From contig CP000070.1 in the NCBI GenBank assembly GCA_000002445.1, forward strand, positions 64,001-128,000: a stretch of DNA of 64,000 nt. The letters are read 5' to 3'. Origin of the DNA: Trypanosoma brucei (taxonomy: Eukaryota). Below the pieces are notes generated by a model, which saw nothing but the letters and a program-made list of their open reading frames with translations, had not been told where the DNA came from and searched no databases. Both the position numbers and the translations under genes were made by a program. Shown here in pieces: positions 1 to 18,287 of the stretch (the stretch's first letter is position 1; each line of letters opens with the position of its first letter).

Positions 1-1971
1 GAAAGTTATAAAATGCCAACATCCCAACACCTGTTGGTTGCGCACCGCAGCGCGAAATAGTAATTATACCAAAAATATGCTTACCTTTCCCCCCTTACGA
101 TTCCTAATTTAAGAAACAATAATTCCCCCCTCCTCCAACCTGAGTGTGCTATTAATCAAATAAAAACAACAATAACAATAACATGAACATGAACACAATG
201 GAGTTGGTGACTGGTTAAGTAACACTGAGCCGCGTTACAGCCAACTTCGAACATAACAATGTAACAAGAGGCGCCGTATGGAAAGTGCCGTTTGTTGTCT
301 GAAATTACAGCCTAAGGATTGGCGCAGCACACATTACTCATATGATAATCTCACTTTTGCAATTCAGATATTGGGAAATGCAACCTTCCGCAAACCCCAT
401 CATCACGCATTTCCATTTAAAAAGGGGTTTAAACCTGATAAAAAAAAAAAAAGAAAGCAAAGAGAAAATGTTATCCTCCTCCACCCCTGTTGTGTGGAGA
501 CTAAAAAAGCGGACGTTACTGAAAAGCCATTGTTAGTTTCGTGACCAAACACGCATGATTAGAGAACCATTTACGCACCATTACGAACCGTCTCGCTTCA
601 CCGTGCAACAATTAAAGCTGCAAAGATATGAAAAAAAAAAATGAGTTCCAGAATTGCATTGCCACGGCGACGCGATAATGCGATGAAAGATAAATGTCTA
701 TAAAAAAAATATATGACCAAATCGGTATTAAAAATTTTAAAAACAGCGTACTTCATTACATAACATAACACTGCACTACAAAGCAACCCACCACCATAAT
801 GGAGCGAATGCAAAAACACAATGCCCAGTGAAAAAAAAAACGCAAGTGGAAAGACATTCTACAACAGCGACCAAATCATGCATTAAACAAATTCCTTTCC
901 CTCCAATAAAACTCACATTCGGTTAATTACACACCTGGCGCCCACAAGTCAAAATGTGCAATGCGCTAAAGATGTTGTGACTGCAGGATTGTACATCTCA
1001 AATAACATTCTCACAAGTATTGACTCTTCCGGCAGGTCTTCCAACTGAAGGTACGAATAATCAAACGCCGTCAACTCGCAACATTTAAAAGAAAATTATT
1101 TCTCTCCTTTCTTTCAGGGACTTTGAAATTGGAGGTTCTGCACAAATCCTCAATCCTCCGGCAGGTGTAAGCTCCACTTCATTTCAGTGGTCAGATACAT
1201 AACTAAATGAAAGTAAAGTATAACTAAACGACAGAGAGATTAAAGCAAAGGGGAAAACAAGTAACGACACTTACAAACAAGAAACAAGATAGTAAAATAA
1301 GTAAGTGGAAAGAAACTTAGGGAATCTAGAAGAAACATGCAGATGAAATAAAAAGAATATGGAGTCCCAAAACACATCACAACGATAAAAACTGAATACC
1401 CCATGACAATAAAAATGGAAACAATTGTGTGGAAGAAAACACTGACAAAATAAATAAAAATAAAATAACAATATCACTATTTGAAAAAAAAAAAGAATCA
1501 AGGGCAAAACGAGTCAGATAAAATAGCAGATGGGTATAGCCGCTATTTGAACACTTTCACAATAAATCCATCAACAAACGATGGGTAAGATGCGGTGTCT
1601 CAACAATGCAGCGTCTGCACACAGAAATCTCCAGTGTCATGTGCCCACCCGAATGTTTAAAGACGCCACACCAATAGGATAGCATTTAAAAAACAATAAT
1701 AACAGAAAAGATAAATATGTGGGAGACGTATGGTTTAAAAAAATGAGTAAAAAGACTTTTTTGTAGCACTGGTGCGGTACGTAAAAATTTAGTATACCAT
1801 TGAATTAAATAAGAATATAATAATGAAACGACCAGCGAAGAAAGCATAGGGGTGAGAAACGCCGTAAGTGGCCCCTCCCGTTGCAGTAGCGCCCTGTAAA
1901 CACGTGTTTAGCTAACGCCTAACTTCGACCTGTCGACACGGTAAGAGGATTAGGGAAACAGTTGACAGCTT

Positions 1972-3120
1972 TTAAAAATGTGCGGCAGCACTGTGAGAAA
2001 GTGCTGCAAGAAGGATCAGTAATGTGTATCCTCCTATAGATTCTGCATAGCTGCCGTCATTACCAACTTCTGCTTCCTCACCCTCATCGTCACCCAATTC
2101 CTGCACATGATCATCGTCAGAAATTTCCACTTTTCCTTCAGGATCCTTCTTCGGTACTTCCTCAACTTCCGTTCTTTCCGTCTTTTCCTTGTCCTCTGGA
2201 ACCTCCACGTTTCCTTCAGGATCCTTCTTCGGTACTTCCTCAACTTCCGTTCTTTCCGTCTTTTCCTTGTCCTCTGGAACCTCCACGTTTCCTTCAGGAT
2301 CCTTCTTCGGTACTTCCTCAACTTCCGTTCTTTCCGTCTTTTCCTTGTCCTCTGGAACCTCCACGTTTCCCTCAAATTCCTCCCTCGAAATCTCTTGAAC
2401 ATCCGCTTTTTCCGTCTCTGCCGTCCTTTCGGCTTCCTCAGCTGCCTTGTGTGCGTTGCTTTCAGCTGCCCTTGCTGCAACTCTTGCTTCGCTGGCACGC
2501 CGCACAGCAGCCTCTAATTGATCATATTCCGCCCTGAGATCAGCCATACCATCCGTCAAGATTTTGCAGATATCGCCAGTGAAGAACTCACACCCAAATT
2601 CCACAGCCTTTTTCAGCACCCAGGAGTTAACTCCTCTATTTGGGAGACTGCAGCCTCTCGCAATTCGTCTTGCAGTACTGGCGGCACTATTGTCCTCTGC
2701 AACACTTTTCAGATAATCATCAACCGGAGCGGTCTTTCCGGCTGCGAGCAGTGGGGCACGGGCCGCGTATTGCTCCACATCCGACAGGGCCGTCTTGGCG
2801 GCATTCTCCGCGCTCTCTGCTTCCTTTAGGGCAGCGCGAGCGCGTCCGACGGCCTCCTCCACCTTGGGAGTACTCGAAAAGGCATCCTCCGCTCGTCTCA
2901 CGGCATCTTGGCAACCTTCTCTCGCTTTAGAGGCATCCGAGACATTCGCTGCCGCCAACGCTTTGAGGGCCTTCACACCGAAGGGTATTCCATGCAGCGC
3001 TTCTGAAAAGAGACATGCCGCACTTACATGGCTCACTGTGTTTTGAGACCCTTCCTCAATTATGGAGTCGGCGGTGACATACGTAAGTATAGCAAGCAAG
3101 CACAAAAAACGGGCAGTCAT
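1972..3120 (-). CDS. Ala/Glu-rich GPI-anchored surface protein, copy 1, subtype A, with 3 x 26-aa EVPEDKEKTERTEVEEVPKKDPEGNV repeats. BARP/GARP-like, tentative.
   Basis: 382-aa ORF. N-terminal signal peptide MTARFLCLLAILTYVTA|DS. Ala/Glu-rich helical middle. Acidic 78-bp repeats. C-terminus ...SYAESIGGYTLLILLAALSHSAAAHF is hydrophobic and GPI-signal-like. Confidence 0.75.
   Translation of the reverse strand: MTARFLCLLAILTYVTADSIIEEGSQNTVSHVSAACLFSEALHGIPFGVKALKALAAANVSDASKAREGCQDAVRRAEDAFSSTPKVEEAVGRARAALKEAESAENAAKTALSDVEQYAARAPLLAAGKTAPVDDYLKSVAEDNSAASTARRIARGCSLPNRGVNSWVLKKAVEFGCEFFTGDICKILTDGMADLRAEYDQLEAAVRRASEARVAARAAESNAHKAAEEAERTAETEKADVQEISREEFEGNVEVPEDKEKTERTEVEEVPKKDPEGNVEVPEDKEKTERTEVEEVPKKDPEGNVEVPEDKEKTERTEVEEVPKKDPEGKVEISDDDHVQELGDDEGEEAEVGNDGSYAESIGGYTLLILLAALSHSAAAHF
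2140..2380 (-). repeat. In-frame 78-bp tandem repeat (3 copies) inside surface gene copy 1. Copy 2 has 2 copies at about 5300-5460. Copy 5 has 1 copy at about 14840-14920. Copies 3 and 4 have none.
   Basis: Period counted directly: cttcttcggtacttcctcaacttccgttctttccgtcttttccttgtcctctggaacctccacgtttccttcaggatc is 78 nt. The protein sizes step by about 26 aa: 303, 330, 356 and 382. Confidence 0.85.
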
Positions 3121-3394: not shown

Positions 3395-4071
3395 TTATTC
3401 TTTCGACTGTCCCTGTTCAGCTATAAGTTCTCGAATGGCGATTGTGCTTCCAGATTTTATACTTGCAGTTTTTAATCGGGAGAGAACGCTTTCCAGTCGC
3501 TCGAAAGGATCATCACTAACTGCAGCCAGAATGCTTTTCAAATAACTCAAGTCGGTTACAAGTTGTTCTACTGCAAGGGCCGCAGCATCGTCGCTATTAA
3601 GTGGGAAACACATTGTAATGTTTTGTCAGGAAAGAACTGAAGAACGGCCTTTACAGCTTCCATCAGTCCATTCATAACTACTTGAAATCGATCATACTTC
3701 ATGATAGATTGCGAATCCTTTAAGAGGTCTTCCACGCGCTCTGCTTCTCGCCGTGCAAATGATTCCAGCACCTTAGGTTGCTCGAATATGTGTGCAAGCT
3801 CAGTTTGAGTATAAAAATTAATTTGCTCTGCAATATCGTCCCGCCTACACAAACTGTTTTTAACGTTTCTTCCGTCCTCAGCACCAACACATACCTTCGG
3901 AGGAGTAGAATCAATTTTAATACTAAGCTGCCTTACTGCCTCAAAGCAGGAAATAAGCTCAACATTCCTCTCCACACACTGCAAAATGGGAGTTAAGCAA
4001 GTGGAAAGACATTCTACAACAGCGATCAAATCATGCATTAAACAAACTCCTTTCCCTCCAATAAAACTCAC
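3395..4071 (-). pseudogene. COG7-like gene 3' fragment, 5'-truncated and carrying a ~620-bp internal deletion (unit 1).
   Basis: ORFs 3568..4071 and 3395..3613 match the C-terminal third of the 784-aa protein at 15933..18287. The deletion junction at about 3613-3620 (cacattgtaatgttttgtcagg) shifts the frame. Confidence 0.8.
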
Positions 4072-5131: not shown

Positions 5132-6202
5132 TTAAAAATGTGCGGCAGCACTGTGAAAAAGTGCTGCAAGAAGGATCAGTAATGTGTATCCTCCTATAGA
5201 TTCTGCATAGCTGCCGTCATTACCAACTTCTGCTTCCTCACCCTCATCGTCACCCAATTCCTGCACATGATCATCGTCAGAAATTTCCACTTTTCCCTCA
5301 GGATCCTTCTTCGGTACTTCCTCAACTTCCGTTCTTTCCGTCTTTTCCTTGTCCTCTGGAACCTCCACGTTTCCTTCAGGATCCTTCTTCGGCACTTCCT
5401 CAACTTCCGTTCTTCCCGTCTTTTCCTTGTCCTCTGGAACCTCCACGTTTCCCTCAAATTCCTCCCTCGAAATCTCTTGAACATCCGCTTCTTCCGTCTC
5501 TGCCGTCCTTTCGGCTTCCTCAGCTGCCTTGCGTGCGTTGCTTTCAGCTGCCCTTGCTGCAACTCTTGCTTCGCCGGCACGCCGCACAGCAGCCTCTAAT
5601 TGATCATATTCCGCCCTGAGATCAACCATACGCGTCCTCGCGATCCTACATATTTCACCCATGAAAATAGCACATGCGGATTCCACAGCCTGTGTCAGCA
5701 CCCAGGAGTTAACTCCTCTATTTGGGAGACTGCAGCCTCTCGCAATTCGTCTTGCAGTACTGGCGGCACTATTGTCCTCTGCAACACTTTTCAGATAATC
5801 ATCAATCGGAGCGGTCTTTCCGGCTGCGAGCAGTGGGGCACGGGCCGCGTATTGCTCCACATCCGACAGGGCCGTCTTGGCGGCATTCTCCGCGCTCTCT
5901 GCTTCCTTTAGGGCAGCGCGAGCGCGTCCGACGGCCTCCTCCGCTTTGGGATTATTCCAAGAGGCATCCTCCGCTCGTCTCACGGCATCTTGGCAACCTT
6001 CTCTCGCTTTAGAGGCATCCGAGACATTCGCTGCCGCCAACGCTTTGAGGGCCTTCACACCGAAGGGTATTCCATGCAGCGCTTCTGAAAAGAGACATGC
6101 CGCACTTACATGACTCACTGTGTTTTGAGACCCTTCCTCAATTATGGAGTCGGCGGTGACATACGTAAGTATAGCAAGCAAGCACAAAAAACGGGCAGTC
6201 AT
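5132..6202 (-). CDS. Ala/Glu-rich GPI-anchored surface protein, copy 2, subtype A, with 2 repeats.
   Basis: 356-aa ORF, more than 90% identical to copy 1. Same signal peptide and GPI-like tail. Confidence 0.75.
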   Translation of the reverse strand: MTARFLCLLAILTYVTADSIIEEGSQNTVSHVSAACLFSEALHGIPFGVKALKALAAANVSDASKAREGCQDAVRRAEDASWNNPKAEEAVGRARAALKEAESAENAAKTALSDVEQYAARAPLLAAGKTAPIDDYLKSVAEDNSAASTARRIARGCSLPNRGVNSWVLTQAVESACAIFMGEICRIARTRMVDLRAEYDQLEAAVRRAGEARVAARAAESNARKAAEEAERTAETEEADVQEISREEFEGNVEVPEDKEKTGRTEVEEVPKKDPEGNVEVPEDKEKTERTEVEEVPKKDPEGKVEISDDDHVQELGDDEGEEAEVGNDGSYAESIGGYTLLILLAALFHSAAAHF

Positions 6203-6476: not shown

Positions 6477-7775
6477 TTATTCTTTCGACTGTCCCTGTTC
6501 AGCTATAAGTTCTCGAATGGCGATTGTGCTTCCAGATTTTATACTTGCAGTTTTTAATCGGGAGAGAACGCTTTCCAGTCGCTCGAAAGGATCATCACTA
6601 ACTGCAGCCAGAATGCTTTTCAAATAACTCAAGTCGGTTACAAGTTGTTCTACTGCAAGGGCCGCAGCATCGTCGCTATTAAGTGGGAAACACATTATAA
6701 TGTTGGCCACTTTAGACTCAATAAAGTCCGATACCGCCGTGCGCACAATATCATCTAACCAATATTCCGTTACTTCTTCGAGTAACTCTTCAATGCCGTC
6801 GAACCGTCCCTCGCTGCCACCCCGTAATGATTCGAGTGCTAATGGTATTTCCACAATGGCTTCACCAAAGCCGCGCACCATTTCACTAGGCGCAAGATGT
6901 AATGGCGTGTGTAGCACAGAATTGGAAATCACAGCGCTTCCTCCGTTACTCGACTGTAACCTCCAGAGTGGTTGCGACTCATAACCGTCAGCTGTGGCAA
7001 TAACGGGAGCAATGACAGTTTGTTTTATAGCCTGCTGGCATTCAGCAGCACAAATCACCAGTACATTGTTTAGTGGCCGCCACAGCTGTTCACTTAGTTG
7101 ACTATTGATAGACTCAACCTCAGTTGGACGTAGTCGGCGCACCTCCGCAGATTTGACATAGTCTTCGCACATTTTCTGCGTAGACAGAAGCAATTGTTGA
7201 ACAATTTTGCGTAACGCTGAAAGGCGCTCTAACAACTCCGTCTGGTGCGTGTGAGGTGCGGGTTGAAAAAATGTCAGCGACTGGACGAGTGCCACCTTCC
7301 ATCGGCTCACACAGATCGGTAATGTTTTGTCAGGAAAGAACTGAAGAACGGCCTTTACAGCTTCCATCAGTCCATTCATAACTACTTGAAATCGATCATA
7401 CTTCATGATAGATTGCGAATCCTTTAAGAGGTCTTCCACGCGCTCTGCTTCTCGCCGTGCAAATGATTCCAGCACCTTAGGTTGCTCGAATATGTGTGCA
7501 AGCTCAGTTTGAGTATAAAAATTAATTTGCTCTGCAATATCGTCCCGCCTACACAAACTGTTTTTAACGTTTCTTCCGTCCTCAGCACCAACACATACCT
7601 TCGGAGGAGTAGAATCAATTTTAATACTAAGCTGCCTTACTGCCTCAAAGCAGGAAATAAGCTCAACATTCCTCTCCACACACTGCAAAATGGGAGTTAA
7701 GCAAGTGGAAAGACATTCTACAACAGCGACCAAATCATGCATTAAACAAATTCCTTTCCCTCCAATAAAACTCAC
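6477..7775 (-). pseudogene. COG7-like gene 3' fragment, 5'-truncated but otherwise the intact C-terminal 432 codons (unit 2).
   Basis: The 432-aa ORF is near-identical to residues ~353-784 of the full gene. It has no N-terminal half and begins at the array junction (~7723). Confidence 0.8.
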
Positions 7776-8834: not shown

Positions 8835-9746
8835 TTAAAAATGTGCGGCAGCACTGTGAAAAAGTGCTGCAAGAAGGATCAGTAATGTGTATCCTCCTAT
8901 AGATTCTGCATAGCTGCCGTCATTACCAACTTCTGCTTCCTCACCCTCATCGTCACCCAATTCCTGCACATGATCATCGTCAGAAATTTCCACTTTTCCT
9001 TCAGGATCCTTCTTCGGCACTTCCTTAACTTTCGCTTTTTCCGTCTCTGCCGTCCTTTCGGCTTCCTCAGCTGCCTTGTGTGCGTTGCTTTCAGCTGCCC
9101 TTGCTGCAACTCTTGCTTCGCTGGCACGCCGCACAGCAGCCTCTAATTGATCATATTCCGCCCTGAGATCAGCCATACGCGCCCTCGCAGTGTTGCAGAT
9201 AACTGTCATGAAAACGGCACAACCGGATTCCACAGCCTGTGTCAGTACCCAGGAACTAACTTCAAGTGGGGCATTGCAGTCTCTCGCAATTCGTCTTGCA
9301 GTACTGGCGGCACTATTGTCCTCTGCAACACTTTTCAGATAATCATCAACCAGAGCTACATTGTTGTTCGCGAGCGCTGAGGCATTGGCAGCGTATTGCT
9401 CCACATCCGACAGGGCCGTCTTGGCGGCATTCTCCGCGCTCTCTGCTTCCTTTAGGGCAGCGCGAGCGCGTCCGACGGCCTCCTCCACCTTGGGAGTACT
9501 CGAAAAGGCATCCTCCGCTCGTCTCACGGCATCTTGGCAACCTTCTCTCGCTTTAGAGGCATCCGAGACATTCGCTGCCGCCGACGTCTTGAACACTTTG
9601 ACACTGTTGGGTACTCCATGCAGCGCTTCCGACATGAGACATGCCGCACTTACATGACTCACTGTGTCTTGAAACCCTTCCCCACCTTTGGGACCGGTGG
9701 TGACATACATAAGTATAGCAAGCAAGCACAAAAAACGGGCAGTCAT
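8835..9746 (-). CDS. Ala/Glu-rich GPI-anchored surface protein, copy 3, subtype B, no 78-bp repeat.
   Basis: 303-aa ORF. The N-terminal domain is divergent (TGPKGGEGFQDTV..., GVPNSVKVFKTS, ANASALANNNVALV). Signal peptide and C-terminal half match subtype A. Confidence 0.75.
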   Translation of the reverse strand: MTARFLCLLAILMYVTTGPKGGEGFQDTVSHVSAACLMSEALHGVPNSVKVFKTSAAANVSDASKAREGCQDAVRRAEDAFSSTPKVEEAVGRARAALKEAESAENAAKTALSDVEQYAANASALANNNVALVDDYLKSVAEDNSAASTARRIARDCNAPLEVSSWVLTQAVESGCAVFMTVICNTARARMADLRAEYDQLEAAVRRASEARVAARAAESNAHKAAEEAERTAETEKAKVKEVPKKDPEGKVEISDDDHVQELGDDEGEEAEVGNDGSYAESIGGYTLLILLAALFHSAAAHF

Positions 9747-10020: not shown

Positions 10021-10693
10021 TTATTCTTTCGACTGTCCCTGTTCAGCTATAAGTTCTCGAATGGCGATTGTGCTTCCAGATTTTATACTTGCACTTTTTA
10101 ATCGGGAGAGAACGCTTTCCAGTCGCTCGAAAGGATCATCACTAACTGCAGCCAGAATGCTTTTCAAATAACTCAAGTCGGTTACAAAATGACAGCGACT
10201 GGACGAGTGCCACCTTCCATCGGCTCACACAGATCGGTAATGTTTTGTCAGGAAAGAACTGAAGAACGGCCTTTACAGCTTCCATCAGTCCATTCATAAC
10301 TACTTGAAATCGATCATACTTCATGATAGATTGCGAATCCTTTAAGAGGTCTTCCACGCGCTCTGCTTCTCGCCGTGCAAATGATTTCAGCACCTTAGGT
10401 TGCTCGAATATGTGTGCAAGCTCAGTTTGAGTATAAAAATTAATTTGCTCTGCAATATCGTCCCGCCTACACAAACTGTTTTTAACGTTTCTTCCGTCCT
10501 CAGCACCAACACATACCTTCGGAGGAGTAGAATCAATTTTAATACTAAGCTGCCTTACTGCCTCAAAGCAGGAAATAAGCTCAACATTCCTCTCCACACA
10601 CTGCAAAATGGGAGTTAAGCAAGTGGAAAGACATTCTACAACAGCGACCAAATCATGCATTAAACAAATTCCTTTCCCTCCAATAAAACTCAC
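10021..10693 (-). pseudogene. COG7-like 3' fragment, 5'-truncated with a ~610-bp internal deletion (unit 3).
   Basis: ORF 10142..10693 ends in the novel tail ...SLSFCNRLELFEKHSGCS. The deletion junction near 10188 is ggttacaa|aatgacagcg. The unit-2 copy is continuous across this point. Confidence 0.75.
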
Positions 10694-11753: not shown

Positions 11754-12665
11754 TTAAAAATGTGCGGCAGCACTGTGAGAAAGTGCTGCAAGAAGGATCA
11801 GTAATGTGTATCCTCCTATAGATTCTGCATAGCTGCCGTCATTACCAACTTCTGCTTCCTCACCCTCATCGTCACCCAATTCCTGCACATGATCATCGTC
11901 AGAAATTTCCACTTTTCCTTCAGGATCCTTCTTCGGCACTTCCTTAACTTTCGCTTTTTCCGTCTCTGCCGTCCTTTCGGCTTCCTCAGCTGCCTTGTGT
12001 GCGTTGCTTTCAGCTGCCCTTGCTGCAACTCTTGCTTCGCTGGCACGCCGCACAGCAGCCTCTAATTGATCATATTCCGCCCTGAGATCAGCCATACGCG
12101 TCCTCGCAGTGTTGCAGATAACTGTCATGAAAACGGCACAACCGGATTCCACAGCCTGTGTCAGTACCCAGGAACTAACTTCAAGTGGGGCATTGCAGTC
12201 TCTCGCAATTCGTCTTGCAGTACTGGCGGCACTATTGTCCTCTGCAACACTTTTCAGATAATCATCAACCAGAGCTACATTGTTGTTCGCGAGCGCTGAG
12301 GCATTGGCAGCGTATTGCTCCACATCCGACAGGGCCGTCTTGGCGGCATTCTCCGCGCTCTCTGCTTCCTTTAGGGCAGCGCGAGCGCGTCCGACGGCCT
12401 CCTCCACCTTGGGAGTACTCGAAAAGGCATCCTCCGCTCGTCTCACGGCATCTTGGCAACCTTCTCTCGCTTTAGAGGCATCCAAGACATTCGCTGCCGC
12501 CGACGTCTTGAACACTTTGACACTGTTGGGTACTCCATGCAGCGCTTCCGACATGAGACATGCCGCACTTACATGACTCACTGTGTCTTGAAACCCTTCC
12601 CCACCTTTGGGACCGGTGGTGACATACGTAAGTATAGCAAGCAAGCACAAAAAACGGGCAGTCAT
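11754..12665 (-). CDS. Ala/Glu-rich GPI-anchored surface protein, copy 4, subtype B, nearly identical to copy 3.
   Basis: 303-aa ORF. Only a few substitutions against copy 3 (M13T, S61L, A188T, F296S). Confidence 0.75.
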   Translation of the reverse strand: MTARFLCLLAILTYVTTGPKGGEGFQDTVSHVSAACLMSEALHGVPNSVKVFKTSAAANVLDASKAREGCQDAVRRAEDAFSSTPKVEEAVGRARAALKEAESAENAAKTALSDVEQYAANASALANNNVALVDDYLKSVAEDNSAASTARRIARDCNAPLEVSSWVLTQAVESGCAVFMTVICNTARTRMADLRAEYDQLEAAVRRASEARVAARAAESNAHKAAEEAERTAETEKAKVKEVPKKDPEGKVEISDDDHVQELGDDEGEEAEVGNDGSYAESIGGYTLLILLAALSHSAAAHF

Positions 12666-12939: not shown

Positions 12940-13612
12940 TTATTCTTTCGACTGTCCCTGTTCAGCTATAAGTTCTCGAATGGCGATTGTGCTTCCAGAT
13001 TTTATACTTGCAGTTTTTAATCGGGAGAGAACGCTTTCCAGTCGCTCGAAAGGATCATCACTAACTGCAGCCAGAATGCTTTTCAAATAACTCAAGTCGG
13101 TTACAAAATGACAGCGACTGGACGAGTGCCACCTTCCATCGGCTCACACAGATCGGTAATGTTTTGTCAGGAAAGAACTGAAGAACGGCCTTTACAGCTT
13201 CCATCAGTCCATTCATAACTACTTGAAATCGATCATACTTCATGATAGATTGCGAATCCTTTAAGAGGTCTTCCACGCGCTCTGCTTCTCGCCGTGCAAA
13301 TGATTCCAGCACCTTAGGTTGCTCGAATATGTGTGCAAGCTCAGTTTGAGTATAAAAATTAATTTGCTCTGCAATATCGTCCCGCCTACACAAACTGTTT
13401 TTAACGTTTCTTCCGTCCTCAGCACCAACACATACCTTCGGAGGAGTAGAATCAATTTTAATACTAAGCTGCCTTACTGCCTCAAAGCAGGAAATAAGCT
13501 CAACATTCCTCTCCACACACTGCAAAATGGGAGTTAAGCAAGTGGAAAGACATTCTACAACAGCGACCAAATCATGCATTAAACAAATTCCTTTCCCTCC
13601 AATAAAACTCAC
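12940..13612 (-). pseudogene. COG7-like 3' fragment with the same internal deletion as unit 3 (unit 4).
   Basis: ORF 13061..13612 is near-identical to 10142..10693. The deletion junction is near 13107. Confidence 0.75.
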
Positions 13613-14665: not shown

Positions 14666-15658
14666 TTAAAAATGTGCGGCAGCACTGTGAAAAAGTGCTG
14701 CAAGAAGGATCAGTAATGTGTATCCTCCTATAGATTCTGCATAGCTGCCGTCATTACCAACTTCTGCTTCCTCACCCTCATCGTCACCCAATTCCTGCAC
14801 ATGATCATCGTCAGAAATTTCCACTTTTCCTTCAGGATCCTTCTTCGGCACTTCCTCAACTTCCGTTCTTCCCGTCTTTTCCTTGTCCTCTGGAACCTCC
14901 ACGTTTCCCTCAAATTCCTCCCTCGAAATCTCTTGAACATCCGCTTCTTCCGTCTCTGCCGTCCTTTCGGCTTCCTCAGCTGCCTTGCGTGCGTTGCTTT
15001 CAGCTGCCCTTGCTGCAACTCTTGCTTCGCTGGCACGCCGCACAGCAGCCTCTAATTGATCATATTCCGCCCTGAGATCAACCATACGCGTCCTCGCGAT
15101 CCTACATATTTCACCCATGAAAATAGCACATGCGGATTCCACAGCCTGTGTCAGCACCCAGGAGTTAACTCCTCTATTTGGGAGACTGCAGCCTCTCGCA
15201 ATTCGTCTTGCAGTACTGGCGGCACTATTGTCCTCTGCAACACTTTTCAGATAATCATCAATCGGAGCGGTCTTTCCGGCTGCGAGCAGTGGGGCACGGG
15301 CCGCGTATTGCTCCACATCCGACAGGGCCGTCTTGGCGGCATTCTCCGCGCTCTCTGCTTCCTTTAGGGCAGCGCGAGCGCGTCCGACGGCCTCCTCCAC
15401 CTTGGGAGTACTCGAAAAGGCATCCTCCGCTCGTCTCACGGCATCTTGGCAACCTTCTCTCGCTTTAGAGGCATCCGAGACATTCGCTGCCGCCGACGCT
15501 TTGAGGGCCTTCACACCGAAGGGTATTCCATGCAGCGCTTCTGAAAAGAGACATGCCGCACTTACATGACTCACTGTGTTTTGAGACCCTTCCTCAATTA
15601 TGGAGTCGGCGGTGACATACGTAAGTATAGCAAGCAAGCACAAAAAACGGGCAGTCAT
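14666..15658 (-). CDS. Ala/Glu-rich GPI-anchored surface protein, copy 5, subtype A, with 1 repeat.
   Basis: 330-aa ORF. It is the closest copy to the intact COG7-like gene. Confidence 0.75.
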   Translation of the reverse strand: MTARFLCLLAILTYVTADSIIEEGSQNTVSHVSAACLFSEALHGIPFGVKALKASAAANVSDASKAREGCQDAVRRAEDAFSSTPKVEEAVGRARAALKEAESAENAAKTALSDVEQYAARAPLLAAGKTAPIDDYLKSVAEDNSAASTARRIARGCSLPNRGVNSWVLTQAVESACAIFMGEICRIARTRMVDLRAEYDQLEAAVRRASEARVAARAAESNARKAAEEAERTAETEEADVQEISREEFEGNVEVPEDKEKTGRTEVEEVPKKDPEGKVEISDDDHVQELGDDEGEEAEVGNDGSYAESIGGYTLLILLAALFHSAAAHF

Positions 15659-15932: not shown

Positions 15933-18287
15933 TTATTCTTTCGACTGTCCCTGTTCAGCTATAAGTTCTCGAATGGCGATTGTGCTTCCAGATTTTATAC
16001 TTGCAGTTTTTAATCGGGAGAGAACGCTTTCCAGTCGCTCGAAAGGATCATCACTAACTGCAGCCAGAATGCTTTTCAAATAACTCAAGTCGGTTACAAG
16101 TTGTTCTACTGCAAGGGCCGCAGCATCGTCGCTATTAAGTGGGAAACACATTATAATGTTGGCCACTTTAGACTCAATAAAGTCCGATACCGCCGTGCGC
16201 ACAATATCATCTAACCAATATTCCGTTACTTCTTCGAGTAACTCTTCAATGCCGTCGAACCGTCCCTCGCTGCCACCCCGTAATGATTCGAGTGCTAATG
16301 GTATTTCCACAATGGCTTCACCAAAGCCGCGCACCATTTCACTAGGCGCAAGATGTAATGGCGTGTGTAGCACAGAATTGGAAATCACAGCGCTTCCTCC
16401 GTTACTCGACTGTAACCTCCAGAGTGGTTGCGACTCATAACCGTCAGCTGTGGCAATAACGGGAGCAATGACAGTTTGTTTTATAGCCTGCTGGCATTCA
16501 GCAGCACAAATCACCAGTACATTGTTTAGTGGCCGCCACAGCTGTTCACTTAGTTGACTATTGATAGACTCAACCTCAGTTGGACGTAGTCGGCGCACCT
16601 CCGCAGATTTGACATAGTCTTCGCACATTTTCTGCGTAGACAGAAGCAATTGTTGAACAATTTTGCGTAACGCTGAAAGGCGCTCTAACAACTCCGTCTG
16701 GTGCGTGTGAGGTGCGGGTTGAAAAAATGTCAGCGACTGGACGAGTGCCACCTTCCATCGGCTCACACAGATCGGTAATGTTTTGTCAGGAAAGAACTGA
16801 AGAACGGCCTTTACAGCTTCCATCAGTCCATTCATAACTACTTGAAATCGATCATACTTCATGATAGATTGCGAATCCTTTAAGAGGTCTTCCACGCGCT
16901 CTGCTTCTCGCCGTGCAAATGATTCCAGCACCTTAGGTTGCTCGAATATGTGTGCAAGCTCAGTTTGAGTATAAAAATTAATTTGCTCTGCAATATCGTC
17001 CCGCCTACACAAACTGTTTTTAACGTTTCTTCCGTCCTCAGCACCAACACATACCTTCGGAGGAGTAGAATCAATTTTAATACTAAGCTGCCTTACTGCC
17101 TCAAAGCAGGAAATAAGCTCAGGATTCCTCTCCACACACTGCAAAATGGGAGTTAAGCAAGTGGAAAGACATTCTACAATTTCATCTGCCATTAAACGCA
17201 AAACTTTCACGGGTTGCGACTCGGGCCCTTCAGAAATCTCCGCATTATCCGTGATATCGCGATTACCGCTGTAAACATGTGCCAACTGCATTAAATAGTC
17301 TAACTGGTCGGTGAGTGCACATCCTAAGGAAGGTATAAGTTGCGTTTTCAGCACCTCTGCCGCACGCACGGGAGAAATTGGATGCCTTGAAACTTTTGAC
17401 TCAGAGTGATGTAGCAGACAAAACACTTTTTCCTTTTCGGAGGCTATGCTCTCTGCGGAAAATTGCTGAAGAACAGCATCAGCCCTCCCAATAGTATCAA
17501 GTACCTTGAGGAGATGAGCAGCACGGTCTACTACTCTTCGGCGTAACTGTTCCATACATTCGGTCTCCACCACGCGTTGCAGGAGTTGTTCATGCCTCTC
17601 AACTGCTTCCAGCTGCTTTCCACCAAACGTTACCTCTAATTTCTGAAGGTCTGCGAGGTTTTGCCGCACCTCCCTAATAGACACCGCCACTAAGTCTATG
17701 TCCACCTCTGACACCGAAACACGAAGTTTCTCCATAATATCGTCCAATTGCTTCATATTGCTATCAACTTCCGATGCCTTCTTAAGTGTTTCAGAGCAGC
17801 GCATGAGCTTCTTCTGCGTTTTCTTCAGATCATTGAGCTGTGCAACGTATGGTTTGGAGATCATTTCTACCGCTGGTTGCGCCTCCTCTCTTATTTTGCA
17901 AAGTGCCTGTTGAAGTTGTTGAACTTCCGTAACCATACGGCCGACTTCCAGCCCAGTTCGGGGGAGCCGAACGAGCGCCTGTGTGATAGTGTCGTCAACA
18001 GAACTTGCAACCTCCTGTGAGTATGAATGCAATCTGCCGTACAAATTTGTGATGCGCCCTTCCAACTCCGCATCGGTTTCTACCCCATCAGGATTCGCCG
18101 AAGAAATACATTGCAAAGAGGTATTTATCCACTGAATAACGTCAAAGTTCTCACTTGCTAATTCATCTAACGAGAACGCGAACGACGCGGGATCAGTGGA
18201 AGGTGAAGTACCAATCGAAGGGTTTGGATTTGGTACGTCCTGCATTTTTGGGCTTAAAGAAGAAGGAAAGTTAAGGCAGCAGTGCAC
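15933..18287 (-). CDS. Conserved oligomeric Golgi complex subunit 7-like protein. This is the intact parent of the array fragments.
   Basis: 784-aa ORF. The N-terminal FSLDELASENFDVIQWINTSL resembles the COG7 N-terminal motif (LADDFDVKEWINAAF, recalled from memory). The protein is long and helical. A polypyrimidine tract on the coding strand lies just upstream of the ATG (revcomp of aaagaagaaggaaag at about 18250-18265). Confidence 0.5.
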   Translation of the reverse strand: MHCCLNFPSSLSPKMQDVPNPNPSIGTSPSTDPASFAFSLDELASENFDVIQWINTSLQCISSANPDGVETDAELEGRITNLYGRLHSYSQEVASSVDDTITQALVRLPRTGLEVGRMVTEVQQLQQALCKIREEAQPAVEMISKPYVAQLNDLKKTQKKLMRCSETLKKASEVDSNMKQLDDIMEKLRVSVSEVDIDLVAVSIREVRQNLADLQKLEVTFGGKQLEAVERHEQLLQRVVETECMEQLRRRVVDRAAHLLKVLDTIGRADAVLQQFSAESIASEKEKVFCLLHHSESKVSRHPISPVRAAEVLKTQLIPSLGCALTDQLDYLMQLAHVYSGNRDITDNAEISEGPESQPVKVLRLMADEIVECLSTCLTPILQCVERNPELISCFEAVRQLSIKIDSTPPKVCVGAEDGRNVKNSLCRRDDIAEQINFYTQTELAHIFEQPKVLESFARREAERVEDLLKDSQSIMKYDRFQVVMNGLMEAVKAVLQFFPDKTLPICVSRWKVALVQSLTFFQPAPHTHQTELLERLSALRKIVQQLLLSTQKMCEDYVKSAEVRRLRPTEVESINSQLSEQLWRPLNNVLVICAAECQQAIKQTVIAPVIATADGYESQPLWRLQSSNGGSAVISNSVLHTPLHLAPSEMVRGFGEAIVEIPLALESLRGGSEGRFDGIEELLEEVTEYWLDDIVRTAVSDFIESKVANIIMCFPLNSDDAAALAVEQLVTDLSYLKSILAAVSDDPFERLESVLSRLKTASIKSGSTIAIRELIAEQGQSKE

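What the first reader, a model, noticed from the sequence alone, without database searches (positions are those of the whole stretch)
3600..3625. Independent internal deletions in the pseudogene fragments, one at a 7-bp microhomology
Unit 1 has lost about 620 bp between two taatgtt copies. In unit 2 these sit at about 6693 (cacattataatgttggcc) and about 7318 (ggtaatgttttgtcagg), and the result in unit 1 is cacattgtaatgttttgtcagg. Units 3 and 4 share a different ~610-bp deletion, ggttacaa|aatgacagcg at about 10188 and 13107. Unit 2 retains the whole 1.3 kb. The fragments are therefore decaying independently, which fits non-functional relics. The shared deletion also marks units 3 and 4 as a recent duplicate pair.
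Basis: seen in the sequence. Interest (0 to 1): 0.55.

Follow-up and report, generated by a model that had tools for sequence, protein, structure and literature searches.

The report
Deletions in relic COG7 gene fragments
The two internal deletions are real, but they lie in leftover 3' pieces of the neighbouring COG7 gene that were copied along with each unit of a known Trypanosoma brucei surface-protein (MISP) gene array, and they look like ordinary repair scars rather than anything new.

Summary
The window is T. b. brucei TREU927 chromosome 7 (Tb927.7.360-.470). Five MISP genes alternate with 3' fragments of the adjacent COG7 gene (Tb927.7.450).

**Observation confirmed.**
- Unit 1 lacks 622 bp (delA). 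TAATGTT flanks the lost segment, and chance gives such a repeat in about 5 of 10,000 possible deletions. The base next to the repeat comes from the "wrong" side.
- Units 3 and 4 share a 626-bp deletion (delB, not ~610). It has only a 2-bp AA overlap, which is not significant, plus a linked substitution.

**Interpretation partly supported.**
- The fragments are truncated, frameshifted relics.
- They are not decaying independently by mutation: there are 0-4 substitutions against the parent, and sequence moves between fragments and parent.
- delB is not recent. The identical junction is in every fragment of T. b. gambiense DAL972 and T. b. equiperdum IVM-t1, and in IVM-t1 it is also in the COG7 gene itself.
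- delA also occurs in another isolate (ERR034315).
- Units 3 and 4 are a recent pair, but whole-unit identity shows this (7 differences in 2,941), not the deletion.
- Unit 2's full fragment matches the parent at every site except one adjacent 2-bp change, so it is probably a recent copy rather than a retained original.

**Mechanism:** microhomology-mediated end joining plus unequal recombination or gene conversion. Ordinary; low interest.

The parts
842..864 (-). 23-nt COG7-derived remnant (GCAAGTGGAAAGACATTCTACAA on +) at the distal end of the array. It is the same 23 nt that begin every fragment.
   Evidence: It is also at the array end in DAL972 and IVM-t1. There is no further COG7 homology beyond it.
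1972..3120 (-). MISP gene Tb927.7.360 (A type, 382 aa, about 3 copies of the 78-bp C-terminal repeat).
   Evidence: Pfam GARP 5.8e-51; exact match to AAZ12101; repeats.
3395..4019 (-). COG7 3' fragment of unit 1 carrying delA. Annotated as Tb927.7.370 (156-aa ORF, 3568-4038).
3614..3622 (.). delA junction: T|G, then the single remaining TAATGTT (3616-3622).
   Evidence: The identical junction is in Logan contig ERR034315.
5132..6202 (-). MISP gene Tb927.7.380 (A type, 356 aa).
6477..7723 (-). Full-length COG7 3' fragment of unit 2 (1,247 nt, Tb927.7.390, 421-aa in-frame ORF). It differs from the parent only at 7666-7667.
6697..7318 (.). The 622-bp segment missing in unit 1 (delA). It is flanked by TAATGTT at 6698-6704 and 7320-7326.
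6642..7267 (.). The 626-bp segment missing in units 3 and 4 (delB). The junction is ambiguous by 2 nt (AA).
8835..9746 (-). MISP gene Tb927.7.400 (B type, 303 aa).
10021..10641 (-). COG7 3' fragment of unit 3 with delB (Tb927.7.410, 172 aa). Junction at 10185|10186; linked A at 10192.
11754..12665 (-). MISP gene Tb927.7.420 (B type, 303 aa).
12940..13560 (-). COG7 3' fragment of unit 4 with delB (Tb927.7.430, 172 aa; the same protein occurs in DAL972 and IVM-t1). Junction at 13104|13105; linked A at 13111.
14666..15658 (-). MISP gene Tb927.7.440 (A type, 330 aa).
15933..18245 (-). Intact parent gene COG7 (Tb927.7.450, 770 aa). The part duplicated into the array is 15933-17179.
   Evidence: Pfam COG7 9e-19; exact match to AAZ12110; single full-length orthologues in other Trypanosoma species.

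Best explanation
**What it is.** The "pseudogene fragments" are 3' pieces of COG7, the gene for conserved oligomeric Golgi complex subunit 7. The repeat unit of the MISP surface-protein array has one boundary inside COG7, so each unit duplication carried a COG7 piece with it. The pieces have no evident function.

**Step 1 (junction shown, timing inferred).** One fragment lost 626 bp early (delB) through an end-joining event with almost no microhomology. A nearby substitution arose with it or soon after. This allele then spread through the array by unit duplication and gene conversion. It is now the common form in several T. brucei lineages.

**Step 2 (inferred).** In the TREU927 lineage, recombination or gene conversion with the intact COG7/MISP-440 unit produced a full-length fragment, that of unit 2.

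**Step 3 (junction shown, pathway inferred).** A full-length copy suffered a double-strand break that was repaired by microhomology-mediated end joining across the two TAATGTT copies. This removed 622 bp (delA). One flap nucleotide was retained and extended, or a later A-to-G change occurred, which accounts for the G at 3615.

**Step 4 (shown by identity).** Units 3 and 4 duplicated, or were homogenised, recently.

**Step 5 (shown).** Exchange between fragments and parent continues. It can move relic sequence, including delB, into the functional gene.
For: **Identity of the locus**
- The proteins match TREU927 AAZ12101-AAZ12113 exactly.
- Pfam finds COG7 for the parent and GARP for the array genes.
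- The MISP array is described in PMC10089363.

**Fragment structure**
- Every fragment starts at the same 23-nt junction, at nt 1109 of the COG7 ORF.
- The statistics of the 7-bp repeat are.

**Mechanism in this organism**
[quoted passage not shown] Microhomologies were typically 5-20 bp and could be imperfect.
- Total deletions ranged from 81 to 948 bp, and no NHEJ was seen (Glover et al. 2011, PMC3045614). Both deletions here fall in that size range.

**Age of the alleles**
- The identical delB junction and its linked substitution are in DAL972 and IVM-t1.
- delA is in ERR034315, together with 5 private SNPs.

**Exchange between fragments and parent**
- Columns 59-60 read CC in the parent genes of 927 and IVM-t1. 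They read GT in all fragments and also in the DAL972 parent.
- The IVM-t1 parent is parent-type at columns 59-60 but carries delB. TREU927 unit 2 is fragment-type at 59-60 but full-length. These are reciprocal configurations, with the exchange lying in the same 390-bp interval.

**Relative ages of the units**
- Unit 2 against the parent unit: identical over columns 61-1341, with about 5 events up to column 3208. Orthologous 927 and DAL972 units show about 15 events over the same span.
- Units 3 and 4 differ at 7 of 2,941 positions.
Against: - delB has only 2 bp of microhomology (probability 0.16). That is below the 5-20 bp typical of experimental T. brucei MMEJ, so its pathway is not established.
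- The delA junction is not the textbook product, because the base beside the repeat is from the right-hand copy.
- The COG7 part has too few variable sites (12 columns) to date events firmly. The order of steps rests on three assemblies and one short contig.
- The DAL972 array may be collapsed in assembly.
- delA and delB nearly coincide (571-bp overlap, 622 against 626 bp). Two fully independent breaks do not explain this.
- Whether the fragments are expressed was not tested.
Confidence: 0.75

Rival explanations
1. All fragments began full-length. Unit 2 simply retains the ancestral state, units 1 and 3/4 lost sequence independently and recently, and the shared delB shows that units 3 and 4 are a recent duplicate.
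For: The endpoints differ. Units 3 and 4 are nearly identical. Some full-length fragment must have existed at some time for delA and delB to arise.
Against: delB is the only fragment form in two other subspecies assemblies, with the same linked substitution, so it predates the unit 3/4 pair. Unit 2's fragment has no differences from the parent over about 1,280 columns, and its MISP gene is the one most like the parent-adjacent MISP. delA is shared with another isolate.
Confidence: 0.25
2. delA is not an independent deletion of a full-length copy. It arose from a delB copy through a break near the delB junction. One end invaded a full-length template and copied about 55 nt (6642-6696 and beyond). 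The other end was captured at TAATGTT, which cost about 51 nt (7268-7318). This is the RAD51-dependent "one-sided MMEJ gene conversion" described in T. brucei.
For: It explains why the two deletions overlap by 571 bp and differ by only 4 bp in length. By my own rough estimate, such a coincidence has a chance of about 1% for uniformly placed endpoints. The distal unit that carries delA in TREU927 carries delB in its positional counterpart in IVM-t1. The pathway exists in T. brucei (PMC3045614).
Against: No marker distinguishes it, because the delB-linked site lies inside the delA gap. TREU927 also holds a full-length fragment next door, from which a simple deletion could have come. The model needs more steps.
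Confidence: 0.25
3. The fragments are functional and the deletions were selected. For example, they might be needed as spacers or RNA-processing context for MISP mRNAs. Alternatively, removing the middle might avoid a dominant-negative COG7 C-terminal protein.
For: Both deletions remove the same core and keep the same two ends. The fragments are annotated as genes. The COG7 C-terminus is conserved, so a 421-aa C-terminal product could plausibly interfere with the complex.
Against: The full-length in-frame fragment persists in TREU927. The fragments occur only in the T. brucei group, while other species have a single COG7. The low divergence is explained by recent copying and conversion, and there are no data on expression or phenotype. 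The MISP paper treats them as unrelated hypothetical genes and reports the MISP family itself as dispensable in tsetse (and the paper's title).
Confidence: 0.07
4. The deletion variants are assembly artefacts of a repetitive array.
For: Tandem arrays are often mis-assembled, and the DAL972 array has only two units.
Against: Both junctions are seen in independent data: delB in two other assemblies and delA in an unrelated read set.
Confidence: 0.02

Closest known systems
MMEJ-based chromosomal deletions in T. brucei (Glover, Jun and Horn 2011, PMC3045614)
   Same: delA has a direct repeat at both edges of the lost segment, with one copy kept. Both deletions fall within the experimental size range of 81-948 bp, and neither has inserted bases. 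The organism has no reported NHEJ.
   Different: These are natural, fixed events, not induced ones. delA keeps one base from the "wrong" side. delB has only 2 bp of overlap, below the typical 5-20 bp.
MISP (metacyclic invariant surface protein) gene array, T. brucei chromosome 7 (Casas-Sanchez et al. 2023, PMC10089363)
   Same: This is that locus: five paralogues, Tb927.7.360/.380/.400/.420/.440, separated by Tb927.7.370/.390/.410/.430.
   Different: The paper calls the intervening genes "unrelated genes encoding hypothetical proteins". Here they are shown to be 3' fragments of the flanking COG7 gene, in three length forms. UniProt's automatic names already say COG7.
Concerted evolution of tandem gene arrays by unequal crossing-over and gene conversion, with partial flanking-gene copies at the unit boundaries
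   Same: There are patchy mosaic differences between units, near-identity of the fragments to the parent, and exchange in both directions between relic and functional gene.
   Different: Nothing in kind. The particular outcome in IVM-t1, where the functional COG7 carries the relic's deletion, is unusual but rests on one assembly.

Membership tests
MMEJ (microhomology-mediated end-joining) deletion | A direct repeat of about 5-20 bp at both edges of the deleted segment in the undeleted reference. | tested here: met
   delA: TAATGTT at 6698-6704 and 7320-7326. Probability of 7 bp or more is 4e-4.
MMEJ (microhomology-mediated end-joining) deletion | The same feature, tested for delB. | tested here: not met
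   Only a 2-bp AA overlap, probability 0.16. There is no in-register imperfect block. The best is 6 of 8 matches, one base out of register.
MMEJ (microhomology-mediated end-joining) deletion | The product keeps exactly one repeat copy, with each flank coming from its own side. | tested here: inconclusive
   One copy is kept (3616-3622). The base 5' of it on the + strand is G, as at the right-hand copy, and not A. A retained flap nucleotide or a later substitution would explain this.
MMEJ (microhomology-mediated end-joining) deletion | Deletion size within the observed range, with no filler DNA. | tested here: met
   622 and 626 bp, against 81-948 bp in PMC3045614. No inserted bases.
MMEJ (microhomology-mediated end-joining) deletion | Initiated by a double-strand break; independent of RAD51. 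| not testable with these tools
   This needs genetics.
Unprocessed (duplicated) pseudogene fragment of COG7 | Nucleotide homology to a parent gene, co-linear and truncated. | tested here: met
   99.1-99.8% identity to COG7 ORF nt 1109-2355. All copies start at the same junction.
Unprocessed (duplicated) pseudogene fragment of COG7 | A disabled reading frame. | tested here: met
   Units 1, 3 and 4: frameshifting deletions, with ORFs ending at 3568, 10142 and 13061. Unit 2 is truncated at the 5' end but in frame (421 aa), so for that copy only the truncation applies.
Unprocessed (duplicated) pseudogene fragment of COG7 | No functional product. | not tested
   No expression or phenotype data were available here.
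COG7 (Pfam PF10191), for the parent gene | A match above the Pfam gathering score. | tested here: met
   67.7 bits against a cut-off of 33.9, residues 42-280. Orthologues 46-53% identical occur across Trypanosoma. The fragments lack the matched region.
MISP / GARP family (Pfam PF16731, Fam50) | A GARP-domain match and identity to the named MISP genes. | tested here: met
   E-values 5.8e-51 and 1.1e-44. Exact matches to the TREU927 proteins. The cluster also holds PDB 5VTL, Tb427.07.360.

The most novel reading that the evidence does not exclude
The relic fragments are not inert. They act as recombination partners that can overwrite the functional COG7. In T. b. equiperdum IVM-t1 this has put the 626-bp relic deletion into the only assembled COG7 copy, removing its conserved C-terminal 250 residues. 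In addition, delA may be a natural footprint of one-sided MMEJ gene conversion acting on a delB copy.
Probability: 0.25. Interest if true: 0.4.

Novelty: new member of a known kind. Interest (0 to 1): 0.2.

Why it matters
The result mainly tidies up annotation.
- Tb927.7.370, .390, .410 and .430 are described in the MISP literature as unrelated hypothetical genes. They are in fact COG7 3' relics that mark the boundary of the array's repeat unit.
- The locus gives natural examples of repair outcomes known from T. brucei experiments: an MMEJ deletion, and exchange between relic and parent.
- It also gives length markers (full, delA, delB) that could be used to trace how the MISP array expanded in different isolates.
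- If the truncated COG7 of T. b. equiperdum IVM-t1 is real, it would show a cost of carrying such relics next to a conserved gene.
- None of this changes what is known about mechanism.

Tried and rejected
- **Diverged older fragment beyond the 23-nt remnant.** Rejected. The local alignment score was 16 against a shuffle mean of 15.5, and tblastn found nothing.
- **Hairpin or long repeat inside the commonly deleted core that could explain a break hot spot.** I found only short repeats at chance level.
- **Imperfect microhomology for delB at offsets 624-628.** Nothing convincing.
- **Exact look-ups of the 156-aa and 421-aa products in public assemblies.** Not on record. Only the variant 156-aa protein from ERR034315 was found.
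- **T. congolense.** COG7 is followed by one GARP-domain gene. The contig ends 1,055 nt after that gene, about where a junction would lie, so the absence of a fragment there is inconclusive.
- **Literature search by gene ID and run accession.** Only the MISP papers refer to these genes. The other hits are longer IDs that share the prefix. ERR034315 was not identified.
- **The AATGACAG 8-mer created by the delB-linked substitution.** It also occurs at 7011-7018. I judged this compatible with chance and did not pursue it.

Full report
**Where the window comes from.** Eight proteins encoded in the window match GenBank entries AAZ12101-AAZ12113 of Trypanosoma brucei brucei TREU927 exactly. The window is therefore the Tb927.7.360-.470 region of chromosome 7, and all genes discussed here are on the minus strand. 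The five array genes hit Pfam GARP:
- 1972-3120
- 5132-6202
- 8835-9746
- 11754-12665
- 14666-15658

They are the MISP genes Tb927.7.360.380.400.420 and .440. One cluster also contains PDB 5VTL, Tb427.07.360. The 770-aa gene at 15933-18245 hits Pfam COG7. It has single full-length orthologues in other trypanosomes, 46-53% identical.

**What the "pseudogene fragments" are.** Each array unit contains a copy of the 3' part of COG7, starting at nt 1109 of the ORF that begins at 18287. Every copy begins with the same 23 nt, GCAAGTGGAAAGACATTCTACAA on the plus strand. These 23 nt lie at 3997-4019, 7701-7723, 10619-10641 and 13538-13560, and in the parent at 17157-17179.

The same 23 nt, and nothing more of COG7, also sit at the distal end of the array at 842-864. 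This is also true in two other subspecies.

The fragments are annotated genes: Tb927.7.370 (156 aa).390 (421 aa), and .410 and .430 (172 aa each). The MISP paper calls them "unrelated genes encoding hypothetical proteins" (PMC10089363).

**Checking the observation.** I aligned each fragment to unit 2.
- *Unit 1* lacks 6697-7318, which is 622 bp. I call this delA.
- *Units 3 and 4* lack 6642-7267, which is 626 bp. I call this delB. Their junctions are identical.
- *The delA repeat.* TAATGTT lies at 6698-6704 and 7320-7326, and one copy remains at 3616-3622.
- *The odd base.* The base just before the repeat in unit 1 is G, as at the right-hand copy (7319), not A as at the left-hand copy (6697). 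The junction is therefore 1 nt outside the repeat.
- *Chance for delA.* Among all 613,278 possible deletions in the fragment, 4.3e-4 have at least 7 bp of microhomology. A further 8e-5 have a 7-bp run offset by one base.
- *Chance for delB.* It has only a 2-bp AA overlap, with probability 0.16, and no better imperfect match in register.
- *Linked substitution.* A T-to-A change 6 nt from the delB junction (10192 and 13111) is shared by both units.
- *Reading frame.* Neither 622 nor 626 is a multiple of three, so both deletions shift the frame. The ORFs end at 3568, 10142 and 13061.

The size of delB and the exact relation of the delA junction to the repeat needed refining.

**Other genomes.** The 172-aa product led to the same locus in two other assemblies: T. 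b. gambiense DAL972 (L002) and T. b. equiperdum IVM-t1 (L001).
- *DAL972:* COG7, MISP, a delB fragment, MISP, then the 23-nt remnant.
- *IVM-t1:* five units. All four fragments carry delB, and so does the COG7 gene itself, which is annotated as 521 aa.
- *Linked substitution:* every delB copy in all three genomes carries it, at alignment column 452. delB therefore arose once and is older than the TREU927 unit 3/4 pair.
- *delA elsewhere:* it was found with exactly the same junction, G included, in a 1,112-nt Logan contig from run ERR034315. That contig differs from TREU927 at 11 positions, and 5 of these are found in no TREU927 copy. delA is therefore also shared between isolates.

**Concerted evolution, not independent decay.** Over the COG7-derived part there are only 12 variable alignment columns among 12 copies from the three genomes. 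In TREU927 only two substitutions are private to one fragment.

Sequence moves between parent and fragments.
- Columns 59-60 read CC in the parents of TREU927 and IVM-t1. They read GT in every fragment and also in the DAL972 parent.
- The IVM-t1 parent is parent-type at these columns but carries delB. TREU927 unit 2 is fragment-type there but full-length. These are reciprocal configurations, with the exchange lying between columns 61 and 451.
- The rest of each unit is a mosaic of clustered differences, as expected from patchy gene conversion.

**Unit 2.** Its fragment is identical to the parent over columns 61-1341. Up to column 3208 it differs from the parent unit by about five events. Orthologous TREU927 and DAL972 units differ by about fifteen events over the same span. 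I infer that the present full-length fragment is a fairly recent copy of the parent, made when delB already existed. With so few sites this is likely rather than proven.

**Units 3 and 4.** They differ at 7 of 2,941 positions and share many TREU927-specific variants. The evidence for this is whole-unit identity, not the deletion.

**Mechanism.** In T. brucei, chromosomal end joining was found to be exclusively microhomology-mediated. Microhomologies were typically 5-20 bp and could be imperfect, deletions totalled 81-948 bp, and there was no NHEJ. A RAD51-dependent "one-sided MMEJ" gene conversion was also described (PMC3045614).
- *delA* fits this pathway. By my inference, the stray G could be a retained flap nucleotide extended from a mismatch, or a later A-to-G change that predates the split from ERR034315.
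- *delB* fits in size but not in microhomology, so its pathway is open.

**An unexplained coincidence.** delA and delB overlap by 571 bp and differ by 4 bp in length. By my rough estimate, the chance of this is about 1% for uniformly placed endpoints.

The distal unit that carries delA in TREU927 has a positional counterpart in IVM-t1 that carries delB. One-sided MMEJ acting on a delB copy, with a full-length copy as template, would explain both facts. No marker can test this, because the delB-linked site lies inside the delA gap.

**Origin of the arrangement.**
- T. congolense has COG7 followed by one GARP-domain gene that is 35% identical to MISP. The COG7-MISP adjacency therefore predates T. 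brucei. That contig is too short to show whether a fragment follows.
- T. theileri has COG7 as the last gene before a convergent strand switch, with no MISP.

**Verdict.** The thing itself is ordinary: relic gene fragments in a known tandem array, carrying two old deletion alleles. One allele has a clear MMEJ signature, and both are shuffled by recombination. Interest is low. The only mildly surprising items are the relic deletion inside COG7 in one T. b. equiperdum assembly and the near-coincidence of the two deletions.

Noticed in passing
L001:10-1738 (T. b. equiperdum IVM-t1 chromosome 7, CM010678.1): The COG7 gene at the head of the array carries the same 626-bp delB deletion as the relic fragments, giving a 521-aa product. 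That product lacks the C-terminal ~250 residues that are well conserved across Trypanosoma. No intact COG7 from this assembly was in the protein cluster.
   Followed up: partly
window 842-864; also L001:16082-16104 and L002:12939-12961: The array ends distally with just the first 23 nt of a COG7 fragment, followed by unrelated T-rich sequence. This is the same in three subspecies. It is too long to be chance microhomology. It may be the stump of a third, larger deletion or a trace of how the first duplication formed.
   Followed up: partly
window 6642-7318: delA and delB remove almost the same segment: 571 bp in common, and 622 against 626 bp in length. This is unexpected for two independent breaks.
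   Followed up: partly
L001:4132-4160 (second unit of IVM-t1): Three clustered substitutions just after the 23-nt junction turn GCAGTGT into TCACTGG. This creates a 12-nt match (TTTTTCACTGGG) to the sequence that follows the 23-nt remnant at the distal end of the array. It looks like a very short templated conversion patch.
   Followed up: no
window 17122-17123 versus 7666-7667 and equivalents; L002 parent COG7: The COG7 codon is Pro in TREU927 and IVM-t1. It is Val in every fragment and in the DAL972 functional gene, which suggests conversion of the functional gene by a relic (or the reverse). The residue is variable in other species, so the direction is unknown.
   Followed up: partly
window 2126-2374, 5286-5456, and the equivalent part of 14666-15658: The 78-bp (26-aa) C-terminal repeat of MISP varies among paralogues: about 3 copies in .360, about 2 in .380, 1 in .440, and none in the B-type genes .400 and .420.
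   Followed up: no
window 5930-5960 (alignment columns 1766-1784 of unit 2's MISP gene): A six-substitution patch (SWNNPKAEE instead of FSSTPKVEE) is shared by TREU927 MISP-380 and the DAL972 COG7-adjacent MISP, but not by the other TREU927 A-type genes. This is an example of patchy gene conversion within the array.
   Followed up: no
L005 (T. theileri) versus L002 (DAL972), downstream of COG7: In T. theileri the genes after COG7 (GST-like, RRM) are on the opposite strand and in reverse order compared with T. brucei. The MISP array therefore sits at an inversion or strand-switch boundary.
   Followed up: no
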